A DNA stretch of 63,598 nucleotides, counting the filler. It is 8 parts of 8 records of this genome, joined end to end, with 100 filler letters (N's around TTAATTAATTAA, not from the genome) between each part and the next. Parts side by side here need not be neighbours in the genome. Positions count along the whole stretch, not along the records: positions 55,166 to 60,111 come from SRR7504441_2193; 7 more parts are not named here. One strand, 5' to 3'. Under the pieces are notes generated by a model. It was not told where the DNA came from. It saw nothing but the letters and a program-made list of their open reading frames with translations, and searched no databases. The translations under genes and the position numbers were made by a program. Positions 13,700-60,211 of this stretch are shown here, in pieces (positions within the stretch are counted from its first letter, which is position 1; each line of letters begins with the position of its first letter).

Positions 13700-13799
13700 N
13701 NNNNNNNNNNNNNNNNNNNNNNNNNNNNNNNNNNNNNNNNNNNTTAATTAATTAANNNNNNNNNNNNNNNNNNNNNNNNNNNNNNNNNNNNNNNNNNNN
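13700..13799. other. Artificial contig spacer (N44-TTAATTAATTAA-N44)
   Basis: Six-frame stop linker flanked by Ns; the same 100-nt spacer occurs seven times. Confidence 0.98.
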
Positions 13800-16860: not shown

Positions 16861-16960
16861 NNNNNNNNNNNNNNNNNNNNNNNNNNNNNNNNNNNNNNNN
16901 NNNNTTAATTAATTAANNNNNNNNNNNNNNNNNNNNNNNNNNNNNNNNNNNNNNNNNNNN
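16861..16960. other. Artificial contig spacer
   Basis: N44-TTAATTAATTAA-N44. Confidence 0.98.
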
Positions 16961-25729: not shown

Positions 25730-25829
25730 NNNNNNNNNNNNNNNNNNNNNNNNNNNNNNNNNNNNNNNNNNNNTTAATTAATTAANNNNNNNNNNNNNNN
25801 NNNNNNNNNNNNNNNNNNNNNNNNNNNNN
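25730..25829. other. Artificial contig spacer
   Basis: N44-TTAATTAATTAA-N44. Confidence 0.98.
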
Positions 25830-37072: not shown

Positions 37073-37172
37073 NNNNNNNNNNNNNNNNNNNNNNNNNNNN
37101 NNNNNNNNNNNNNNNNTTAATTAATTAANNNNNNNNNNNNNNNNNNNNNNNNNNNNNNNNNNNNNNNNNNNN
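37073..37172. other. Artificial contig spacer
   Basis: N44-TTAATTAATTAA-N44. Confidence 0.98.
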
Positions 37173-41382: not shown

Positions 41383-41482
41383 NNNNNNNNNNNNNNNNNN
41401 NNNNNNNNNNNNNNNNNNNNNNNNNNTTAATTAATTAANNNNNNNNNNNNNNNNNNNNNNNNNNNNNNNNNNNNNNNNNNNN
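41383..41482. other. Artificial contig spacer
   Basis: N44-TTAATTAATTAA-N44. Confidence 0.98.
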
Positions 41483-50256: not shown

Positions 50257-52227
50257 TCATGATAACGGCGCACCCAGAGCGGCCGACCCGACCAGCTTAG
50301 AGTAATTTGCGAGTGCTCCGCGCGGGTACTTACTCGGTTTGGGTTTCCACTGTTCTTTGCGAGAGGCCAATTCATCGTCGGGCACATTCAGCTGCAGCCT
50401 GCGAACTCCTGAGCAACATCCATAGTCAGAACACACTCGCACTATCAATAGCACCGGGCGTAACATCGATCGAAATGATATCCCCATCACGAACGAGCGC
50501 CAAAGGCCCTCCAACAGCAGCCTCTGGCGAGACATGACCAATCATTATTCCGTGATTTGCTCCAGAAAACCTCCCGTCGGTGACTAAAGGCACCTGCACA
50601 CTGCACTCAGAGGCATGCCACACAACGGCAACTGACAGTAGCGCCCAGCCCGCGGCCGACCAGTGCGCCACCAGGCGAAAGCATTTCGGGCATCCCCGGG
50701 CTTCCTTTGGGTCCTGCCAGCCAGCTCGAGGGATTGGACGGCTAGTGGACGGACCTTCATACCGGATGACCAGCACGTGACCAGCCGTTACTTGCCCAGC
50801 CATCACGGCATCGTACGCCTGGTGCTCGTCGTCGAAGCAGCGAGCAGCCCCTTCTATTGTAGTGATGCCCTTCCCGGAGATCTTGCACACACAGCTTTCC
50901 GGGGCAAGATTGCCCCTCAGGATCACAATGTGCCGACCTAGGCCACGCTCGCCCCGCCCGCAGCCGGCCACACACCCGGAGGGGCCACTGGGCTGTCAAT
51001 TGGCACAATCACGTCTTGGCCCTCAGGGAGAGGGGGTGCTGACAGTAGATTCTCTCTCATCGTCTTGCCTGTGACAGTGAGAGGATCCCCGTGCAACAGC
51101 CCGGCTTCGAGCAGCAGTCGGAGCACCACCGGCAGCCCGCCCATGTCGTGCAGGTGCTTGGAATACGAGTAAGACCCGTGCGGCTTTAGCTTAGAGATGA
51201 GCGGCACGCGGTCTCCAATCCTGTTGAAGTCATCCACTGTCAGATCGACATCCGCCTCGCGAGCCAGAGCCAGCAGGTGCAACACAGCGTTAGTAGAGCC
51301 CCCGAGCGCATAGAGCGCGGTGATCCCGTTCTCAAACGCCTCTTTAGTCAAGATGCTCCGGCTGTGCGTCTCTGCCTTGAGCAGCCCGAATAATGCCCGG
51401 ACTGAGGCCCGGCAGTCCTCGTGCTTGCCTTGATGCACCTTGGCAGGGTCCAGCCCGACCCCCGGGGCGGCCATGGCTGGAGTGGACGAGCTCCCTGGGA
51501 GCGCCATCCCCATAGCCTCGAACATGGCTGCCATCGTCGAAGCGGTGAACATTTCACCACACGAGCCCACAGAGCCCAGACAGTGCTGCTCCACGTATTC
51601 GAGCTCTTCAATATCAATCGTCCCGTTAGAGAACGCGCCCTGCGCCTCAAACGCCGAGCCAGCCGAGAGCGCCTGCGACCCGAAATGTTTCTCCCAGCCG
51701 GGGCATTTACCGTTAGTACTCCCAGGGAGCCGGCCGCCCCCGTACAGAGTGATGCCAATGTGATTCCCCCGGGGAATGGGCATGAGACAGCCCGGCTGGG
51801 TCTTATCGCAGCCGCCGAGCGTGATCAGCCCGTCGGCGTGGTAACCCTCGTGCATCAGCTCGATGTGGTTAGCACACATGTCCCGGCTGGGGAGTGAGTA
51901 CTTCATTCCTTCGCAGCCCATCGCCATACCGTCCGTTATTACCGGTGGGAAGCAGACGTACGGCCGCCCGCCCAGCTTGACCACCTCGTCCACGATAGTG
52001 TCCACCAGCAGCTGGAAGTGCTGGTTGCATATGTTGGCCTCGCCAGCGAATGGGGCGGCAACAGTGATCACCGGCCGCGAAAAGTCGGAACGGTCCCAGC
52101 CGCTCATCCAGGAGAAACCGCGGGCCCCAACCCGGCGCACCCACGAGTCGGTCCCGGGCTTGCCGGTCATGGCGTACGACCGCTTCTTGAGCTTGCTCAC
52201 CTCTTCGTCGACTGGCCGTGCCTCCAT
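50257..52227 (-). CDS. ilvD: Dihydroxy-acid dehydratase / IlvD-EDD family dehydratase (4 introns)
   Basis: Motifs [83 protein letters not shown] and [12 protein letters not shown]. Confidence 0.93.
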
Positions 52228-52265
52228 ATCGCCGACAGTTCACAACGGAATCCGTTAGGTTAGAG

Positions 52266-55065: not shown

Positions 55066-55165
55066 NNNNNNNNNNNNNNNNNNNNNNNNNNNNNNNNNNN
55101 NNNNNNNNNTTAATTAATTAANNNNNNNNNNNNNNNNNNNNNNNNNNNNNNNNNNNNNNNNNNNN
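55066..55165. other. Artificial contig spacer
   Basis: N44-TTAATTAATTAA-N44. Confidence 0.98.
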
Positions 55166-55374
55166 CTGAATTGCCTGTGTTTGGTTGATTGGTTTTCGTG
55201 ACCCCACAGTGATCCTGTGATCACTCGGCATGTTTACATGTACACGTACTCGTACATGCTTCCCGACTGAGAGACGTTTTAACCTGCCTACCTGCTGTAG
55301 CTAAGTACCAGGTTCAGTGGCAGCTGCTGCTACAGTAAGACCAAAAGGTTTTAACGGCCAAGACCGGCTGACCG

Positions 55375-58300
55375 ATGGAGGCCGCGGCCGACAGCCCAGC
55401 GCCAGGTGGGGCGTCCGAGTTCTGGCTGGGGCTGGTGCAGCGGACCATCTCACAGCTGGTCGTCCCGAAGCACTCGATCAGCATCCGGCCGAACCCGCTT
55501 CTCTTCGGCCGCCTGCCGCCGAGCGCCGGGCCGATCACCCGCGAAATGACTCTGTTCAACGGCGGCAGCGTTCCGGCGGCTGTGCCGGTGCTGCTGCAGC
55601 TGCCCAGCGAGCCGAGTTTTCGGGTGGTCGACCCCGCGGGCATCTGGGGCGGTGGGGCCGTGGAGCTTCCTCCAGGCGAAGAGCTCACTGTCCAGGTCGA
55701 GTGGAGCCCTCCGGCCGGCCCTGGGGTGCTGTCGCAGTACGTGGTGCTCGGTTGCCAGACTGAGGAGTGGGACCCCACCACACTCAGCCTCCGATCCAAC
55801 AGATTCGTTGTTGGATGCCAGCTGCGCGCTGTCGCGGCCGAGGCTGATCACGCCTCGGTGTCTGGCCTGTCACCTGAGGCGAGGCCGTTCGTACCGGGCT
55901 GGAAGCGGGCCATGTGGTGCGCTCCAACGGAAAGAGTCTTCCGTCCGAGCTGGCCGACGCTTCCTCTGTACGACTGCTGGCCACGGGATGAGCACCATCA
56001 GCTGCCTGCGGAGGAGCCTCTTGATGAACTCAAGCGGGTGTACCTATCTTACGTCGCCCAGGCGGCGGCAGCAGAGCTCGGGCCGGGCCGGGCGGTGCTG
56101 CCGCACCAGTGTGCCGCCTGGATCTCGGCGATAGATCAGGCGCGCTGTGGTAGACAGCTGGTGGGCTGACTGGACTCGTTCAGGCTCACGGAGAAGACAG
56201 GATCTCGGCGGCCGAGGGGCGGGTGCAGGCCGACATGGTGCGCCTGGGGACGGCGCCGGCGTACGAGCAGCACGCGGGTGTGGGCCCGCCGGCGGCGCTA
56301 ACGGCACCGGTGACCCCTCCCCTATAGTATTATTGGGCCTTATAGGGCCCGATTCACGAAAACCCGCCCACCAGCACTGTTTTTCACGTCTCCGACCCAC
56401 CGGGGGGGGGGCGGTGGGCGGCATTTTGCCGCCGGATTGGGCTGAGACTCGGTGTACAGCTCTGTAGTAAGTTACTGTAACTTGGAGTCAAAGCTTGCTA
56501 GCATCTGATCAGCGCTGCTGCCGCCCGACCCATTTCGGCCGTTATAGGCGGTTATAGGCGGTTATAGGCCGGTGGAGGCCGTTATAGGCCGGTGGCTTCC
56601 GTTAGCCCTTGCTGCTGAGCCCTGACCCGTAGGTAACGCCGGCGGCGGATTGCAGTTGGGTGAGAGTGGGCTCAGCGATGCAGCGGCTGCAGCCGCCAGA
56701 CACGACGGTGCTACTAAACTACAGCATAGTATAGCATAGTATAGTATATGACATGCTGCTCGCTCCGAGTCCGACCGTCCAGCCGACAGGTCGAGCAGTG
56801 CCGCGAGGACTGGGACGAGGACAGCAGGCTGCTTACCCCGTCGTCCCGGCTGCCGCCCGCGGTGCCAGTCCTGGTGAGGAATTCGACTCGGCTGTTTGCG
56901 GAGGAGCTTGCAATGCACGTCGACTTGCTCCGGTCAGTCGGCCGGGTGCTGTGGGCGAGCTCAGGGCAGGTGCTCGCTCTGGGTGGAGGAGAGCATGATG
57001 CATCGTGACCTGAACACGCTCGACATACAGTCCTCGTGCCTTAGGTATAGTATGGACCTATAGTATAGTTTAGTATGGTATACAGTACAGTATAGTTTAG
57101 TATAGTATGGGCCTGAACACGCTCGACATACAGTCCTCGTGTCTCAGGCCACCCCAACGCAAGACCGCCAAGCAGGCCCGGGACGTGGCTGCAATACATT
57201 TGCCCGGACTACCAGAAGGCAGGCCACCTCTGCGGTTTGGGGACGTGGTGCGGCTGCGCTGGCTCAAGCGGCCGTATGGAGCCGAGTGGCATGGGATCAT
57301 GCTTGGCAAGCAGAACGCCAGCACAGCGCTGTTTCGGCTCAACCCTGAAGTGTTCGCTGGGCCGTTTGCTGACGCGAGTGGCAATAAGTTTGACCCGCCA
57401 GCAGCTTTCGAGTGCCCGATCACGCATCAGTTGCTGGAGGATCCTGTCGTGTGTGAAGACGGACAGAGCTATGAACGCACGGCGATTGAGCGGTGGCTCA
57501 CGCACAGGTGAGTGTATAGCGTTGGTATAGCGATTAAGCGGTGGATACAGCTGCAAGTCGCCTCTGACTAACGCGCCAATGGGCTGCACTCTCATCCCGA
57601 ACCATCAGTTGCGCAGCCAGGTCACTATACTATGCTATACGAGATTATACTATGCTATGCTCGTTTGAATACTATATATGCTAGATTGTGCTAGACCATA
57701 CCGGGTGCAGGTGATGGAGTGGCAGTCGGCTCACCCGCTCGCCAGCTGCCAGAGAAAGCCCAAGTTTGCGATCAGGTTTCAACTAAACAGGTGCGCCCAT
57801 TCACGCAGCTGCAGACCAACCCCAACACAGGCAGCCGCTGGAGGCCATGCACTGGGCTCTAGACCTGGTGGCCACGTCGGCAGATTCCAGCGCAAGGCTG
57901 TTTCCTGACCCGTCCGACCTGCCCTGCGCTCCTCAGCCCAATGGTGCGACAGTAATATAGTAAGCATGATATTCCGTGGCCGACTTGGGCTAAAAGGGCT
58001 CTGGCAGACTATAGTAAAGTATAGTACACGTATAGTAATATAATAGAGTAGTACACGTATGGCTGACTTGGGCTGGAAGGGCTCTGGCAGAACCGGAACG
58101 GGGCGTGGGCCGTGCTGACACCCACCCGGATCGCACTGCTCAACGCCGACTTTACAGGCGAGCATAGCACTACTAGCACTACTAGCACTAGCATAGTCTC
58201 GTATGCTAGACTGCTGAACGCCGCTTTCACAGAGGCCAAGTCGGTGGAGCGCCAGGAGCCGGAGCAGGACACCTCCGCGCTGCTTGTGCGGCTCTTCCGG

Positions 58301-60034
58301 CGAACCAAGCTGCTGGGCGTAGACGGGAGTGCAGAGAGGTGCGGCGAGCTGCCGTGGGCATACCGAGCCCATGCGAGCGTGGCGCGCGCGGTGCAGGCAA
58401 GGCTGGAGGTCGAGCCACAGCAAGGCCGGGCCGTGCTGGGTAGCAGGCTTGTGGAGCAAGCGGTGGACGGCGCGCCTGATCGTGGCAGCTGGATTTCAGC
58501 CAGGCAGAATAGCGAGCAGCAGCGCGCAGTGCATGCGATCACCAGGCGCGCTATGGGGCCGGTTCCGTTCCTGCTGTTTGGCCCACCCGGGACCGGAAAG
58601 ACTAAAACAGCGGTCGAGGCAATCCTCTCCGCGCTGGAGTTTTACGACACGGGCGGGATTGCAGCCTGGGCGCCTGGAGGTAGCATTGAGGGCAAGTCGG
58701 TGCAGATCCTGGCGTGTGCGCCGTCCAATTCGGCAGCGGATGTGTTGGCGAGCAGGCTGGCCGAGCTACTGAGAGAGTATTGCGAGGCCCATCCTGACAG
58801 CCAATTGGGCAAGTCTTGGGAGCAGAATCGGGTGCTGCTCCGACTTAACTCTTTCCAGAGGAGTCCGGACGAGGTGCCCCAGCAGTTGCATCAGTTCTGC
58901 CCGATCGACAATGCCCAGGGCATGTATGACATGCCTCGCAACCTGGCCGAGTACCGCGTGGTTGTCACGACCTGCATCACCAGCCAAGTGCTCGCTCAAC
59001 AGTCAAGATACGGCCAAACGCGCGAGTTTATCCCAGACTTTGTGTTTATTGATGAGGCTTCGCAGGCCATGGAGCCCGAGTCGCTAGTGCCGATCGTGGT
59101 CGCCGGGGAGGCGGCGTCGGTGGTGTTACTGGGAGATCCCAAGCAAATCGGACCCACCTGCAGGGCTTATTACTCGCGCAGTCTTGGCCTTCAAGTCTCG
59201 CTGCAAGAGCGGTTAATGCAGCGTAAAGTGTATACGAATCATGGCGATTCGTGCTTTACAAAGTTGGTCCGGAACTACAGGTCGCATCCAGCTCTACTGG
59301 CACTGCCTTCACAGGTGTTTTACGATAATCAGCTGCAGGCCGAGGCCGGCACCGCAGAGGCCGAGTCACTGCTTAAGTGGTCTGAGCTGCGAAACTCCGA
59401 GTGCCCTATGCTGTTTGTGGGTTTAGAAGGGGAAGACAAGCATGACATGGACAGCCCGTCTTTCTACAACCCGATGGAGGCCACCGCCATATGCGAGCTG
59501 ATCAAATCATTACTCGAATGCCGTCAAGTGGACGGACTCACCACTGATGACATTGGGGTGATAGCTGGCTACCGGAAGCAGGTGATGGCCCTCCGGTTGA
59601 TTTTAAGAGCGAGTGGCTTGTCTGGGATCCGGGTGGGCACCGTACAAGACTACCAGGGCCAAGAGGAGAAAGTGATCTTTGTCTCGACAGTAGTGTCCCG
59701 ACGGCACTGGCTCCACCAGTCTAACGCGTGCAGCCTGATGGCGAGCCCTACACGGTTTAACGTGGCCATCACTCGTGCTAAGGCGCTGCTGTGTGTTGTT
59801 GGCAATCCGCATATTCTGGTTGACGATCCTTGGTGGCGGCTGCTACTCGAGCGGTGTGCTGCCAACCAATGCTATGTGGGTCCGGAAGTCACACTGGAGG
59901 ACGGCGCGGGGGGCACGGCAGCACAAATCGGAAAGCTGGCCAAGCTAGCGTTGTTGAGTGGCTTGCCACAAAGTTCATTTGCAGATGAGTCTATGTCGAC
60001 TTCCTCAGATATTGAGTGGCGGGTAATGCTGTGA
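55375..60034 (+). CDS. MOV10/SDE3-like SF1 (UPF1-type) RNA helicase with an inserted U-box domain
   Basis: N-terminal Ig-like region, LWVEESMMHRDL, LPGLPEGRPPLRFGD and FQLNRQPLEAMHWAL. Helicase motifs FGPPGTGKT, ILACAPSNSAAD, FIDEASQAMEPE, LLGDPKQIG, LVRNYRSHP, YQGQEEK and RFNVAITRAKALL..VGNP. About 10 introns in the 5' half. Confidence 0.9.
57009..57147 (+). repeat. 36-nt direct duplication flanking TATAG-type filler (intron 57045-57147)
   Basis: 57009-57044 and 57112-57147 are 34/36 identical. Confidence 0.92.
57407..57722 (+). other. U-box domain coding segment within the helicase
   Basis: Spliced (introns 57508-57550 and 57621-57710): FECPITHQLLEDPVVCEDGQSYERTAIERWLTHSCKSPLTNAPMGCTLIPNHQLRSQVMEW, matching the U-box consensus. 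Confidence 0.9.
57977..58091 (+). repeat. 32-nt direct duplication flanking TATAGTA filler (intron 57952-58090)
   Basis: 57977-58008 and 58060-58091 are 29/32 identical. Confidence 0.9.
58135..58232 (+). repeat. 23-nt direct duplication flanking CTAG/TAGCAC filler (GC-AG intron 58158-58232)
   Basis: 58135-58157 and 58210-58232 are 19/23 identical. Confidence 0.85.
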
Positions 60035-60111
60035 TGGCAAAATAATGGACGCACTAGGGATAGCCTGAACATTAGAGCACTGAGATGAATTCCATTTTAA
60101 TGCGTGAATAA

Positions 60112-60211
60112 NNNNNNNNNNNNNNNNNNNNNNNNNNNNNNNNNNNNNNNNNNNNTTAATTAATTAANNNNNNNNNNNNNNNNNNNNNNNNNNNNNNNNN
60201 NNNNNNNNNNN
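60112..60211. other. Artificial contig spacer
   Basis: N44-TTAATTAATTAA-N44. Confidence 0.98.

What the first reader, a model, noticed from the sequence alone, without database searches (positions are those of the whole stretch)
57140..57870. U-box E3 ligase inserted inside a MOV10/SDE3-like RNA-silencing helicase
Seen in sequence: a complete U-box (CPITHQLLEDPV..DGQSYERTAIERWL...SPLTN...LIPNHQLRSQVMEW) lies in frame between the MOV10-type motifs LPGLPEGRPPLRFGDVV and KFAIRFQLNRQPLEAMHWAL. That places it within the beta-barrel region preceding an intact SF1 helicase core. Established knowledge: MOV10, SDE3 and Armitage act in RNA silencing and in retroelement/virus restriction and normally lack a U-box, while ZNFX1 is a helicase-E3 fusion with innate-immune roles. 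Inference: a possibly undescribed RNA-sensing ubiquitin ligase coupling RNA surveillance to protein degradation in a protist.
Basis: partly seen in the sequence, partly recalled or inferred. Interest (0 to 1): 0.8.

Follow-up and report, generated by a model that had tools for sequence, protein, structure and literature searches.

The report
U-box ligase domain inside MOV10-like helicase
An unidentified aquatic eukaryote carries a MOV10/SDE3-type RNA helicase gene with a complete ubiquitin-ligase U-box domain spliced into a loop of its beta-barrel, a layout not seen in any relative examined, which could tie RNA binding directly to protein ubiquitination.

Summary
On a 4.9-kb eukaryotic contig (55166-60111), one multi-exon gene encodes a MOV10/SDE3-family SF1 helicase. 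An 81-residue segment carrying a complete U-box sits between the fourth and fifth strands of its MOV10 beta-barrel.

The U-box is split over three exons by GT-AG introns of 43 and 90 nt. Its first half passes Pfam's cut-off on its own. The spliced domain scores 81.8 bits against a profile built here from Pfam-validated U-boxes. The middle exon is the only significant match to the profile's second half among 2,045 six-frame pieces of the window.

The helicase keeps 26 of 27 invariant columns. Fifteen of 17 exonic differences from near-identical metagenome contigs are synonymous, including 4 of 4 in the U-box.

No U-box was found in 386 MOV10-like relatives. None of the 80 most similar metagenomic U-box loci has a barrel or helicase. 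Four literature searches found no such fusion.

No transcript evidence exists, and function is inferred: probably a helicase-coupled E3 ligase, analogous to but not homologous with ZNFX1. Verdict: a real, rare architecture and a new variant of the helicase-E3 theme, with activity untested.

The parts
55375..56108 (+). Exon 1 from the first ATG: N-terminal Ig-like region of the MOV10-type protein. The 3' end is uncertain (56108 or 56149), and a further small exon at 56201-56309 is possible.
   Evidence: Open frame 55372-56169. Residues 25-179 match positions 118-256 of a profile built from N-terminal regions of 85 MOV10-like relatives, E 7.7e-6. The exon end comes from my own codon-usage DP model, with no RNA support.
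56790..57044 (+). Two exons (56790-56932 and 56970-57044) split by a 37-nt GT-AG intron (56933-56969). They encode the helical 'stalk-like' segment before the barrel (RLFAEELAMHVDLL, LWVEESMMHRDLNTLDIQ).
   Evidence: tblastn with MOV10 relatives. Profile positions 324-349. The frame change is supported by synonymous variants on each side. The splice contexts were checked.
57045..57147 (+). 103-nt GT-AG intron: a TATAG-rich core plus a 37-nt copy of the end of the upstream exon.
   Evidence: Direct repeat 57009-57045 / 57112-57148, 95% identical, spacing 103, equal to the intron length.
57148..57507 (+). Exon carrying barrel strands 1-4 (PGLPEGRP...GD at 57200-57250; ALFRLNPEVF at 57326-57355), a linker, and the first half of the U-box (57395-57507).
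   Evidence: One open frame. Pfam U-box E 3.3e-8. PDB U-box chains. Barrel alignment with 13 relatives. An independent metagenome DNA contig spans 57326-57530.
57508..57550 (+). 43-nt intron inside the U-box (CAG|GTGAGT ... ATACAG|C).
   Evidence: Needed to join the U-box halves; the U-box profile score rises from 55.6 to 81.8 bits.
57551..57620 (+). Middle U-box exon (CKSPLTNAPMGCTLIPNHQLRSQ).
   Evidence: The only significant hit of the second-half U-box profile among 2,045 six-frame pieces of the window: 28.2 bits, E 1.4e-7.
57621..57710 (+). 90-nt GT-AG intron with a period-5/10 CTATACTATG-type repeat.
   Evidence: Metagenome contigs with unlike upstream sequence begin matching at 57623 and 57644, so the element also occurs elsewhere in the related genome.
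57711..57790 (+). Exon with the end of the U-box (VMEWQSA, 57711-57731), a 13-residue linker, and the last barrel strand KFAIRFQLN (57762-57790).
57386..57761 (+). The inserted segment as a whole: 81 residues after splicing, from KFDPPAAF to ASCQRKP, lying between barrel strands 4 and 5.
   Evidence: The query is a median 86 residues (73-89) longer than 47 relatives between the two barrel blocks. In the AlphaFold model of the nearest long relative P0243 the gap falls between L188 and I189, in the connector between strands 176-182 and 201-206.
57791..57830 (+). 40-nt GT-AG intron splitting the codon of the R in ..QLNR.
57831..57951 (+). Exon with the post-barrel helix (QPLEAMHWAL) and the LFPDP motif. 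The donor is at 57952 (or 57944).
   Evidence: Profile positions 425-457. Alignment. Both donor/acceptor pairs give an open frame.
58091..60034 (+). Last exon (start 58091 or 58080): linker plus the SF1 helicase core. Walker A GPPGTGKT at 58580-58603, motif II FIDEASQA at 59045-59068, LLGDPKQIGP at 59126-59155, RFNVAITRAKA at 59753-59785, stop at 60032-60034. A 75-nt in-frame stretch (58158-58232) might be a GC-AG intron.
   Evidence: Pfam AAA_11 5.9e-27 and AAA_12 2.1e-43. 26 of 27 invariant columns kept. Nearest PDB sequence UPF1, 2e-30. Coordinates.

Best explanation
Shown here:
- One gene (about 55375-60034, + strand, at least 8 exons) encodes a MOV10/SDE3-family Upf1-like SF1 RNA helicase.
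- A complete canonical U-box, of the 'CPIT..DPV..DGQxYER..WL..SPLT..L.PN' type common in marine protists and giant viruses, is embedded with flexible linkers of about 13-16 residues in the connector between the fourth and fifth strands of the MOV10 beta-barrel.
- The domain is complete, the helicase motifs are intact, the frame is open, and natural variants are almost all synonymous.

Inferred:
- The protein is made as a single chain.
- The helicase part binds and translocates on RNA. The U-box recruits a charged E2 (UBE2D- or UBE2N-like) beside the RNA-binding face of the helicase. Proteins sitting on the bound RNA (Argonaute-type partners, viral or retroelement proteins), or the helicase itself, are then ubiquitinated.
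- The barrel is flanked by two helices ahead of RecA1. By recalled knowledge this is the topology of the regulatory 1B domain of UPF1. RNA binding or the ATPase cycle could therefore gate E3 activity, as RNA binding does for ZNFX1.
For: U-box:
- Pfam 34 bits against a cut-off of 21.4 on exon 1; PDB PUB-type U-boxes at E about 1e-7.
- The spliced domain scores 81.8 bits over positions 9-77 of 85 in a profile of Pfam-validated U-boxes. Its second half is independently significant at E 1.4e-7.
- 14 columns invariant across 10 viral U-boxes are all kept in exon 1.

One gene:
- Barrel blocks lie on both sides of the U-box, and both junctions are inside exons.
- A profile of MOV10 N-terminal regions maps collinearly on the exon pieces.
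- The frame is open from 56790 to 60034.

Helicase: AAA_11 and AAA_12; 26 of 27 invariant columns kept; best relatives are named MOV10, MOV10L1 or SDE3.

Selection: of 18 differences to near-identical metagenome contigs, 17 fall in model exons. Fifteen of those are synonymous and 2 conservative (D>E, M>V). All 4 of the 4 differences listed within the U-box exon are synonymous third-position changes.

Independent DNA support for the barrel-to-U-box junction: a contig of run X1 spans 57326-57530.

Insertion site: it is a connector between strands in a confident model of a relative (pLDDT 86.6).

Precedent for RNA-stimulated E3 activity in an SF1 helicase: the ZNFX1 preprints.
Against: - There is no transcript evidence. 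No RNA holder covers the spliced region, and no joints were seen.
- The architecture is seen in one contig plus near-identical metagenome fragments only, so there is no conservation across species: 0 of 386 relatives and 0 of 80 U-box loci.
- Sixteen GT-AG pairs could remove the U-box in frame, so a U-box-less isoform is possible.
- An ORF-only gene model skipped the middle U-box exon and still stayed open; only homology favours the 3-exon form.
- The near-invariant T of GQTYER is S here.
- The 5' part of the model (56108-56790) is uncertain, and the contig starts 209 nt before the ATG.
- The spliced protein could not be folded or sent to Pfam with the tools available, so the compatibility of barrel and insert is untested.
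- E2 binding, ligase activity, RNA binding and any role in silencing are untested.
Confidence: 0.6

Rival explanations
1. The U-box is folded and kept by selection, but it works mainly on the helicase itself or as a docking or dimerisation module. It would cause auto-ubiquitination that sets the protein's turnover or clustering, not targeting of RNA-bound client proteins.
For: MOV10 abundance is controlled by ubiquitination in animals (passages of PMC8799784; listing of PMC8161014). In ZNFX1 the E3 activity drives self-aggregation and self-turnover (abstract and section 8 of 10.1101/2025.09.05.674436). U-boxes often act as dimers (recalled).
Against: Nothing here separates self from client ubiquitination. 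The same sequence evidence fits both readings.
Confidence: 0.15
2. The U-box is a facultative cassette. The main mRNA splices from within the barrel exon to the last-strand exon and yields an ordinary MOV10-like protein, and the U-box form is a minor or conditional isoform.
For: Sixteen in-frame GT-AG combinations could excise the U-box. One of them uses the real acceptor at 57710. An ORF-based model without homology already chose a different splice here.
Against: None of the candidate donors has the GTGAG/GTAAG-like context of the modelled donors. All 4 of 4 natural variants in the U-box exon are synonymous, so the U-box reading frame is under selection.
Confidence: 0.12
3. Artefact or dead gene: an assembly chimera, a decaying pseudogene, or a wrong gene model that only looks like a fusion.
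For: The sequence is a short metagenome-type contig in a window stitched from 8 contigs. There is no RNA support, no ortholog with the same layout, and the introns are repeat-rich.
Against: An independent DNA contig crosses the barrel-to-U-box junction. The frame is open over 930 codons with GT-AG at every modelled intron. Helicase invariants are kept, 26 of 27. Fifteen of 17 exonic variants are synonymous. The barrel halves flank the insert precisely.
Confidence: 0.08

Closest known systems
MOV10 / MOV10L1 / SDE3 / Armitage family (Upf1-like SF1 RNA helicases)
   Same: The best database relatives are in this family, at 34-49% identity over the core. It shares the AAA_11 and AAA_12 core, the barrel motifs PGLxExRP..GD and (K/R)FxVRFxxNR, the LFP motif, and a collinear N-terminal Ig-like and helical region.
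   Different: An 81-residue U-box insert lies in the barrel's strand 4-5 connector. None of 386 relatives has it. In 47 relatives the gap between the two aligned barrel blocks spans 4-48 residues. The nearest relatives reach only about 46-49% identity and come from scattered protists: Chrysoparadoxa, Cyanophora, Cavostelium and Chlorarachnion.
ZNFX1 (SF1 RNA helicase with E3 ligase modules)
   Same: It is a Upf1-like SF1 helicase joined in one chain to an E2-binding U-box/RING-like module. RNA binding stimulates its E3 activity, and it has an antiviral role (10.1101/2025.09.05.674436 abstract and section 8; 10.1101/2025.10.14.682297 passages). The ZNFX1 helicase core (9q9z) is a structural relative of the nearest MOV10-like model, at E 4.4e-28.
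   Different: ZNFX1's E3 parts (a Z-RING / Miz-like one-zinc hybrid and an RZ finger) lie C-terminal to the helicase, beyond NFX1-type zinc fingers. Here a canonical zinc-free U-box is inserted inside the barrel N-terminal to the core, and Pfam finds no zinc-finger family among its hits with E up to 1 for the last-exon frame 58067-60031. This is a different helicase subfamily and so an independent fusion.
Stand-alone U-box E3 ligases of protists and giant viruses (C-terminal U-box proteins; U-box-VWA-Vwaint-Vint proteins)
   Same: The U-box subtype is the same: 43-59% identity to giant-virus MAG U-boxes over the first half, and up to 69% to metagenomic eukaryote-like contigs. They share the TSPLT(N/G).P motif.
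   Different: In those proteins the U-box is terminal and joined to VWA/Vint, MORN or unknown regions. None is joined to a helicase: 0 of 10 viral proteins and 0 of 80 metagenome loci.
Rad5 / HLTF / SHPRH (SNF2 ATPases with a RING inserted in the motor domain); recalled, not tested here
   Same: They set a precedent for an E2-binding domain inserted within, not appended to, a nucleic-acid motor protein.
   Different: They are SF2 SNF2-type DNA translocases with a zinc RING placed between motor motifs. Here the motor is an SF1 RNA helicase and the U-box sits in an accessory barrel.

Membership tests
MOV10/SDE3 family (Upf1-like SF1 helicase) | SF1 core with AAA_11 and AAA_12 and conserved motif residues | tested here: met
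   AAA_11 5.9e-27 and AAA_12 2.1e-43. 26 of 27 columns invariant in 62 relatives are kept, and the one change is L>I.
MOV10/SDE3 family (Upf1-like SF1 helicase) | MOV-10 beta-barrel (PF21634) just N-terminal to the core | tested here: inconclusive
   The Pfam model itself is below cut-off on the N-part alone (10.8 bits against 23.6, E 0.35), because the domain is split by the insert and by introns. My own profile and alignments place both halves collinearly, with PGLPEGRP..GD and KFAIRFQLNR conserved.
MOV10/SDE3 family (Upf1-like SF1 helicase) | Closest relatives are family members | tested here: met
   Of the 240 best hits listed, nearly all that a source names are called MOV10, MOV10L1, SDE3 or RNA helicase, and most carry PF21634.
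MOV10/SDE3 family (Upf1-like SF1 helicase) | Function in RNA silencing or retroelement restriction, and association with Argonaute | not testable with these tools
   No expression or interaction data. No genome is held for the window, so the presence of Argonaute or Dicer in the organism could not be checked.
U-box E3 ligases (PF04564) | Match to the family profile above its curated cut-off | tested here: met
   34 bits against 21.4 for exon 1 alone, profile positions 2-37 of 73.
U-box E3 ligases (PF04564) | Complete domain of about 70 residues, including the second loop and C-terminal helix | tested here: met
   The spliced model covers positions 9-77 of 85 of a profile built from 16 U-boxes (10 of 10 tested pass PF04564) at 81.8 bits. 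The second half alone gives E 1.4e-7 to 2.4e-11. The spliced protein could not be sent to Pfam itself.
U-box E3 ligases (PF04564) | E2 binding and ubiquitin-ligase activity | not testable with these tools
   Only conservation of the motif residues and synonymous-only variation are available.
ZNFX1-type helicase-E3 | NFX1-type zinc fingers, a Miz-like/Z-RING domain and an RZ finger C-terminal to the helicase | tested here: not met
   No zinc-finger family is among the Pfam hits with E up to 1 for the open frame 58067-60031, which holds the last exon. The protein ends about 80 residues after motif VI. The defining features come from the preprints read.

The most novel reading that the evidence does not exclude
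An independently evolved 'RNA-gated' ubiquitin ligase. Because the U-box is planted in the regulatory, 1B-like barrel of a MOV10-type helicase, the conformational cycle of the helicase on RNA would position or release E2~ubiquitin. Ubiquitin would then be written only onto proteins sitting on RNAs that the helicase engages. This would be a marine-protist counterpart of ZNFX1 that arose by a separate domain insertion, possibly used against RNA viruses, giant-virus transcripts or retroelements.
Probability: 0.2. Interest if true: 0.75.

Novelty: new variant of a known kind. Interest (0 to 1): 0.5.

Why it matters
Helicase-E3 fusions have just become a topic in innate immunity. Two 2025 preprints show ZNFX1 to be an RNA-stimulated E3. 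A second, unrelated fusion would show that coupling RNA engagement to ubiquitination evolved more than once. Here a textbook U-box is inserted into the accessory barrel of a MOV10-type helicase. It would offer a much simpler system than ZNFX1, with one canonical E2-binding domain and no zinc fingers, for testing how a helicase cycle can gate an E3. It would also add an enzymatic activity to the MOV10/SDE3 family, whose animal and plant members are only known as substrates or partners of separate ligases. The caveat is that this is one contig from an unidentified organism with no expression data.

Tried and rejected
- Sequencing runs: no RNA holder listed. There were two small-share holders: X1 (DNA?, aquatic metagenome) and X2 (RNA by guess, seawater metagenome).
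- Laying both runs on the contig gave no joints. X2 covers only 59449-59925 inside the last exon, so there is no information on splicing. The middle U-box exon had no clear cover.
- Pfam on the short exons alone (23-56 aa) returned nothing. phmmer of the 23-aa middle exon against PDB returned nothing. Both were too short for HMMER's filters. I solved this by building U-box profiles from fetched viral loci.
- Word-indexed protein search with exon 1, 'longer' proteins: 369 candidates, none significant.
- First metagenome scan with exon 1: 240 pattern matches, no relative.
- No whole genome is held for the window, so other U-box, MOV10 or Argonaute genes of the organism could not be counted.
- Protein Atlas on exon 1: best score 0.75, uninformative. 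On the neighbouring dehydratase ORF it gave the family only (PF00920), with no usable taxonomy.
- Earlier findings of this scan: nothing by place, words or sequence.
- My ORF/codon-usage gene model skipped short exons, so I replaced it by homology-guided splicing.
- mafft --add --keeplength misaligned the barrel of the window protein, so only the helicase-core columns of that comparison are used.
- I suspected a haptophyte origin from the 10-nt intron repeats and a possible GC-AG intron. One literature search did not settle it, and I dropped the idea.
I modelled a relative instead.
Full report
**Setting.** The window is eight contigs stitched with N44-TTAATTAATTAA-N44 linkers. The finding lies on the contig 55166-60111 (4,946 bp, 59.5% G+C). 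No whole genome is held for the window, and this scan has no earlier notes on it. The contig is eukaryotic in style: long open frames interrupted by short GT-AG introns of 37-43 nt, and by longer introns full of TATAG-like repeats.

**Observation.**
- The frame 57101-57508 reads continuously from the MOV10 barrel motif (LPGLPEGRPPLRFGDVV, 57200-57250) into the first half of a U-box (PPAAFECPIT...DGQSYERTAIERWL, 57395-57499).
- Pfam calls this half a U-box on its own: E 3.3e-8, 34 bits against a cut-off of 21.4, profile positions 2-37 of 73.
- The best PDB sequence matches are plant PUB-type and bacterial U-box chains (7c96_B, 7xed_C, 1t1h_A, 4wz3_B; E 3.5e-8 to 8.9e-7).
- The domain continues after a 43-nt intron (57508-57550) in a 70-nt exon (57551-57620, CKSPLTNAPMGCTLIPNHQLRSQ). 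After a 90-nt intron (57621-57710) it ends in the exon 57711-57790, which starts VMEWQSA.
- Thirteen residues later that exon runs into the last barrel strand, KFAIRFQLN. A 40-nt intron (57791-57830) splits the next codon, and the post-barrel helix QPLEAMHWAL follows.

**Is the second half of the U-box real?**
- The short exons are invisible to Pfam and to phmmer against PDB.
- I therefore fetched genuine U-boxes with a degenerate motif scan of viral contigs. This gave 18 loci, mostly giant-virus MAGs, and 16 distinct domains. Ten of the ten ORFs I tested pass PF04564 (E 4.7e-11 to 2.8e-21).
- A profile of these domains scores the three-exon model at 81.8 bits (E 2.6e-24 in 2,047 targets), covering positions 9-77 of 85. 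It scores 57.7 bits if the middle exon is skipped and 55.6 bits for exon 1 alone.
- The loci were selected by a first-half motif, so a profile of the second half only is an independent test. The piece holding the middle exon is the only significant hit among 2,045 six-frame pieces of the whole window (28.2 bits, E 1.4e-7; next best E 1.5). The spliced model reaches 40.3 bits.
- The U-box is therefore complete, and its completeness requires the modelled splicing.

**Is it inside a MOV10-type gene?**
- The last open frame (58067-60031) carries AAA_11 (5.9e-27) and AAA_12 (2.1e-43).
- Its best relatives among 5.8 billion clustered proteins are MOV10, MOV10L1 and SDE3 proteins at 34-40% identity. 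An exhaustive HMMER search of 1.84 billion representatives finds nothing closer than 46-49%. The named ones among the ten I looked up are scattered protists: Chrysoparadoxa, Cyanophora, Cavostelium and Chlorarachnion.
- The window protein keeps 26 of 27 columns that are invariant in 62 relatives (L>I is the exception).
- tblastn with six relatives, and a 492-position profile built from the N-terminal regions of 85 relatives, map collinearly on the exon pieces:
  - first exon on positions 118-256 (E 7.7e-6);
  - 56878-57060 on positions 327-349;
  - the barrel/U-box exon on positions 341-389 (E 2.7e-6);
  - the KFAIRF exon on positions 415-430;
  - the next exon on positions 425-457;
  - the start of the helicase on positions 467-488.
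- With GT-AG introns at 56933-56969, 57045-57147, 57508-57550, 57621-57710, 57791-57830 and 57952-58090 (or 57944-58079), the frame is open for 930 codons from 56790 to the stop at 60032-60034.
- Upstream, the join between the first exon (ATG 55375) and 56790 is uncertain.

**Where is the insert?**
- In pairwise profile matches to 47 relatives (50 pairs), the two barrel blocks are a median 30 residues apart in the relatives (range 4-48) and 116 apart in the window protein. The excess is a median 86 residues (73-89).
- In the multiple alignment the extra segment lies between ALFRLNPEVF... and KFAIRFQLNR. It is 81 residues, from KFDPPAAF to ASCQRKP, at genomic 57386-57761.
- I modelled the nearest long relative, P0243, with a 62-sequence alignment (mean pLDDT 86.6, pTM 0.88). 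Its barrel strands are 129-135, 151-156, 163-172, 176-182 and 201-206, flanked by long helices 78-101 and 211-225.
- The alignment gap falls between L188 and I189, in the connector between the fourth and fifth strands.
- The whole model resembles the UPF1 helicase core (2gk6_A, E 2.4e-37, TM 0.74 on the target), and also IGHMBP2, SEN1 and the ZNFX1 core (9q9z, E 4.4e-28).
- That the barrel corresponds to UPF1's regulatory 1B domain is my inference from topology and recalled knowledge. It was not tested residue by residue.

**Is the gene alive?**
- Contigs of two public runs match parts of the contig at 95-99% identity.
- One DNA contig of run X1 spans 57326-57530, across the junction from barrel to U-box.
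- Of the 18 listed differences, one lies in a modelled intron. Of the other 17, 15 are synonymous and 2 conservative (D>E, M>V).
- The four in the U-box exon (57406, 57409, 57448, 57487) are all synonymous third-position changes.
- A 2-nt deletion in X1 at 58067 falls in a modelled intron.
- This pattern argues for purifying selection on the modelled frames, including the U-box. It rests on a single near-identical relative.

**What is missing.**
- There is no RNA evidence. No RNA holder was listed for the spliced part, and no joints were seen (recorded as tried only).
- Sixteen GT-AG pairs could excise the U-box in frame.
- A homology-blind gene model chose another splice.
- The spliced protein could not be folded or submitted to Pfam here.

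**Rarity.**
- None of the 240 listed relatives carries PF04564.
- None of 380 fetched relatives matches the window's U-box by phmmer (best E 1.2), and none of 386 matches the U-box profile (best E 1.8).
- From the U-box side, a scan of metagenome contigs found 310 U-box relatives. Among the best 80 loci (385 kb), none has a barrel or helicase match outside the U-box.
- The most similar U-boxes (up to 69% identity) are C-terminal domains of otherwise unrelated proteins on G+C-rich eukaryote-like contigs.
- The giant-virus U-box proteins are U-box-VWA-Vwaint-Vint or MORN-U-box proteins, none with a helicase.
- Four literature searches found no U-box/MOV10-type fusion:
  - U-box + MOV10: 6 papers, none on a fusion judging by titles and abstract starts.
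  - U-box / helicase / domain architecture / SDE3.
  - U-box + AAA_12: 0 papers.
  - U-box domain / Upf1-like / helicase / E3 ligase / fusion.
- These searches cover only the held open-access library.

**Comparison with what is known.**
- The MOV10 review (passages read) describes MOV10 as a substrate or partner of separate ligases, not as a ligase.
[quoted passage not shown] I read the abstract, outline and section 8 of one and passages of the other.
- The present protein resembles ZNFX1 in principle, as a Upf1-like helicase plus an E2-binding domain in one chain. It is not a member of that family. It belongs to the MOV10 subfamily, has a canonical U-box, has no zinc-finger stalk or RZ finger, and carries the E3 domain inside the barrel, not after the helicase.
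- Rad5/HLTF-type SNF2 proteins with an inserted RING are a recalled precedent for insertion into a motor protein.

**Most likely mechanism (inferred).** The helicase engages single-stranded RNA. The U-box, held on linkers of about 13-16 residues on the barrel beside the RNA channel, recruits E2~ubiquitin. Ubiquitin is transferred to proteins on the same RNA, or to the helicase itself, with RNA or nucleotide state possibly gating the reaction.

| Reading | Confidence |
|---|---|
| Genuine single-chain helicase-E3 | about 0.6 |
| Self-directed or scaffolding U-box | 0.15 |
| Facultative cassette | 0.12 |
| Artefact or pseudogene | 0.08 |

**Verdict.** It is a new variant of the helicase-E3 theme, known so far from one uncharacterised aquatic eukaryote. 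Interest is moderate (0.5).

Noticed in passing
window 57009-57148, 57977-58091, 58133-58232: Three intronic or putatively intronic stretches of this gene are bracketed by imperfect direct repeats of 24-37 nt around TATAG- or TAGCAC-type cores. For 57045-57147 the intron length (103 nt) equals the repeat spacing, and the downstream copy ends exactly at the 3' splice site. This looks like intron creation by insertion with a long target duplication, or an introner-like element.
   Followed up: partly
window 56537-56595, 56723-56748, 57059-57108, 57624-57658, 58010-58038, 58165-58190: The introns of this gene hold tandem repeats with periods of 5, 9, 10 or 11 nt (GGCCGTTATA x5.5, AGCATAGTAT, CTATACTATG, TAGCACTAC). 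TATAGTA-like words occur 10 times on this contig and 3 times in the other 58 kb of the window. Metagenome contigs with unlike flanks start matching inside these elements (loose ends at 56727, 56747, 57623 and 57644), so the element is repeated elsewhere in the related genome.
   Followed up: partly
window 58158-58232: A 75-nt in-frame stretch begins with GC and ends with AG, and encodes a low-complexity peptide (GEHSTTSTTSTSIVSYARLLNAAFT). It could be a GC-AG intron or a retained insertion. Either reading keeps the frame open.
   Followed up: no
whole window; linkers at 13700-13799, 16861-16960, 25730-25829, 37073-37172, 41383-41482, 55066-55165, 60112-60211: The window is a concatenation of eight contigs joined by N44-TTAATTAATTAA-N44 linkers, with G+C from 51% to 61%. 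Neighbouring 'genes' across linkers are therefore not genomic neighbours, and the contigs need not come from one organism.
   Followed up: yes
L001, L005, L007, L008, L012, L016 (giant-virus MAG contigs): Giant-virus MAGs encode proteins of about 570-790 aa with an N-terminal U-box followed by VWA, Vwaint and Vint (Hint-like) domains. L011 encodes a MORN-repeat protein with a C-terminal U-box. Their U-boxes are of the same TSPLT subtype as the one in the window.
   Followed up: partly
window 50938-52239 (- strand): A 433-aa open frame without interruptions on the neighbouring contig looks like a dihydroxy-acid / 6-phosphogluconate dehydratase (language-model features 0.95 to PF00920 clusters, mostly bacterial).
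   Followed up: no
L019, L020, L022, L025, L040, L042, L058, L059 (metagenome contigs): G+C-rich (57-69%) eukaryote-like metagenome contigs encode proteins of 395-1,517 aa with a C-terminal U-box up to 69% identical to the first half of the window's U-box. They are a plausible donor family for the insert.
   Followed up: partly
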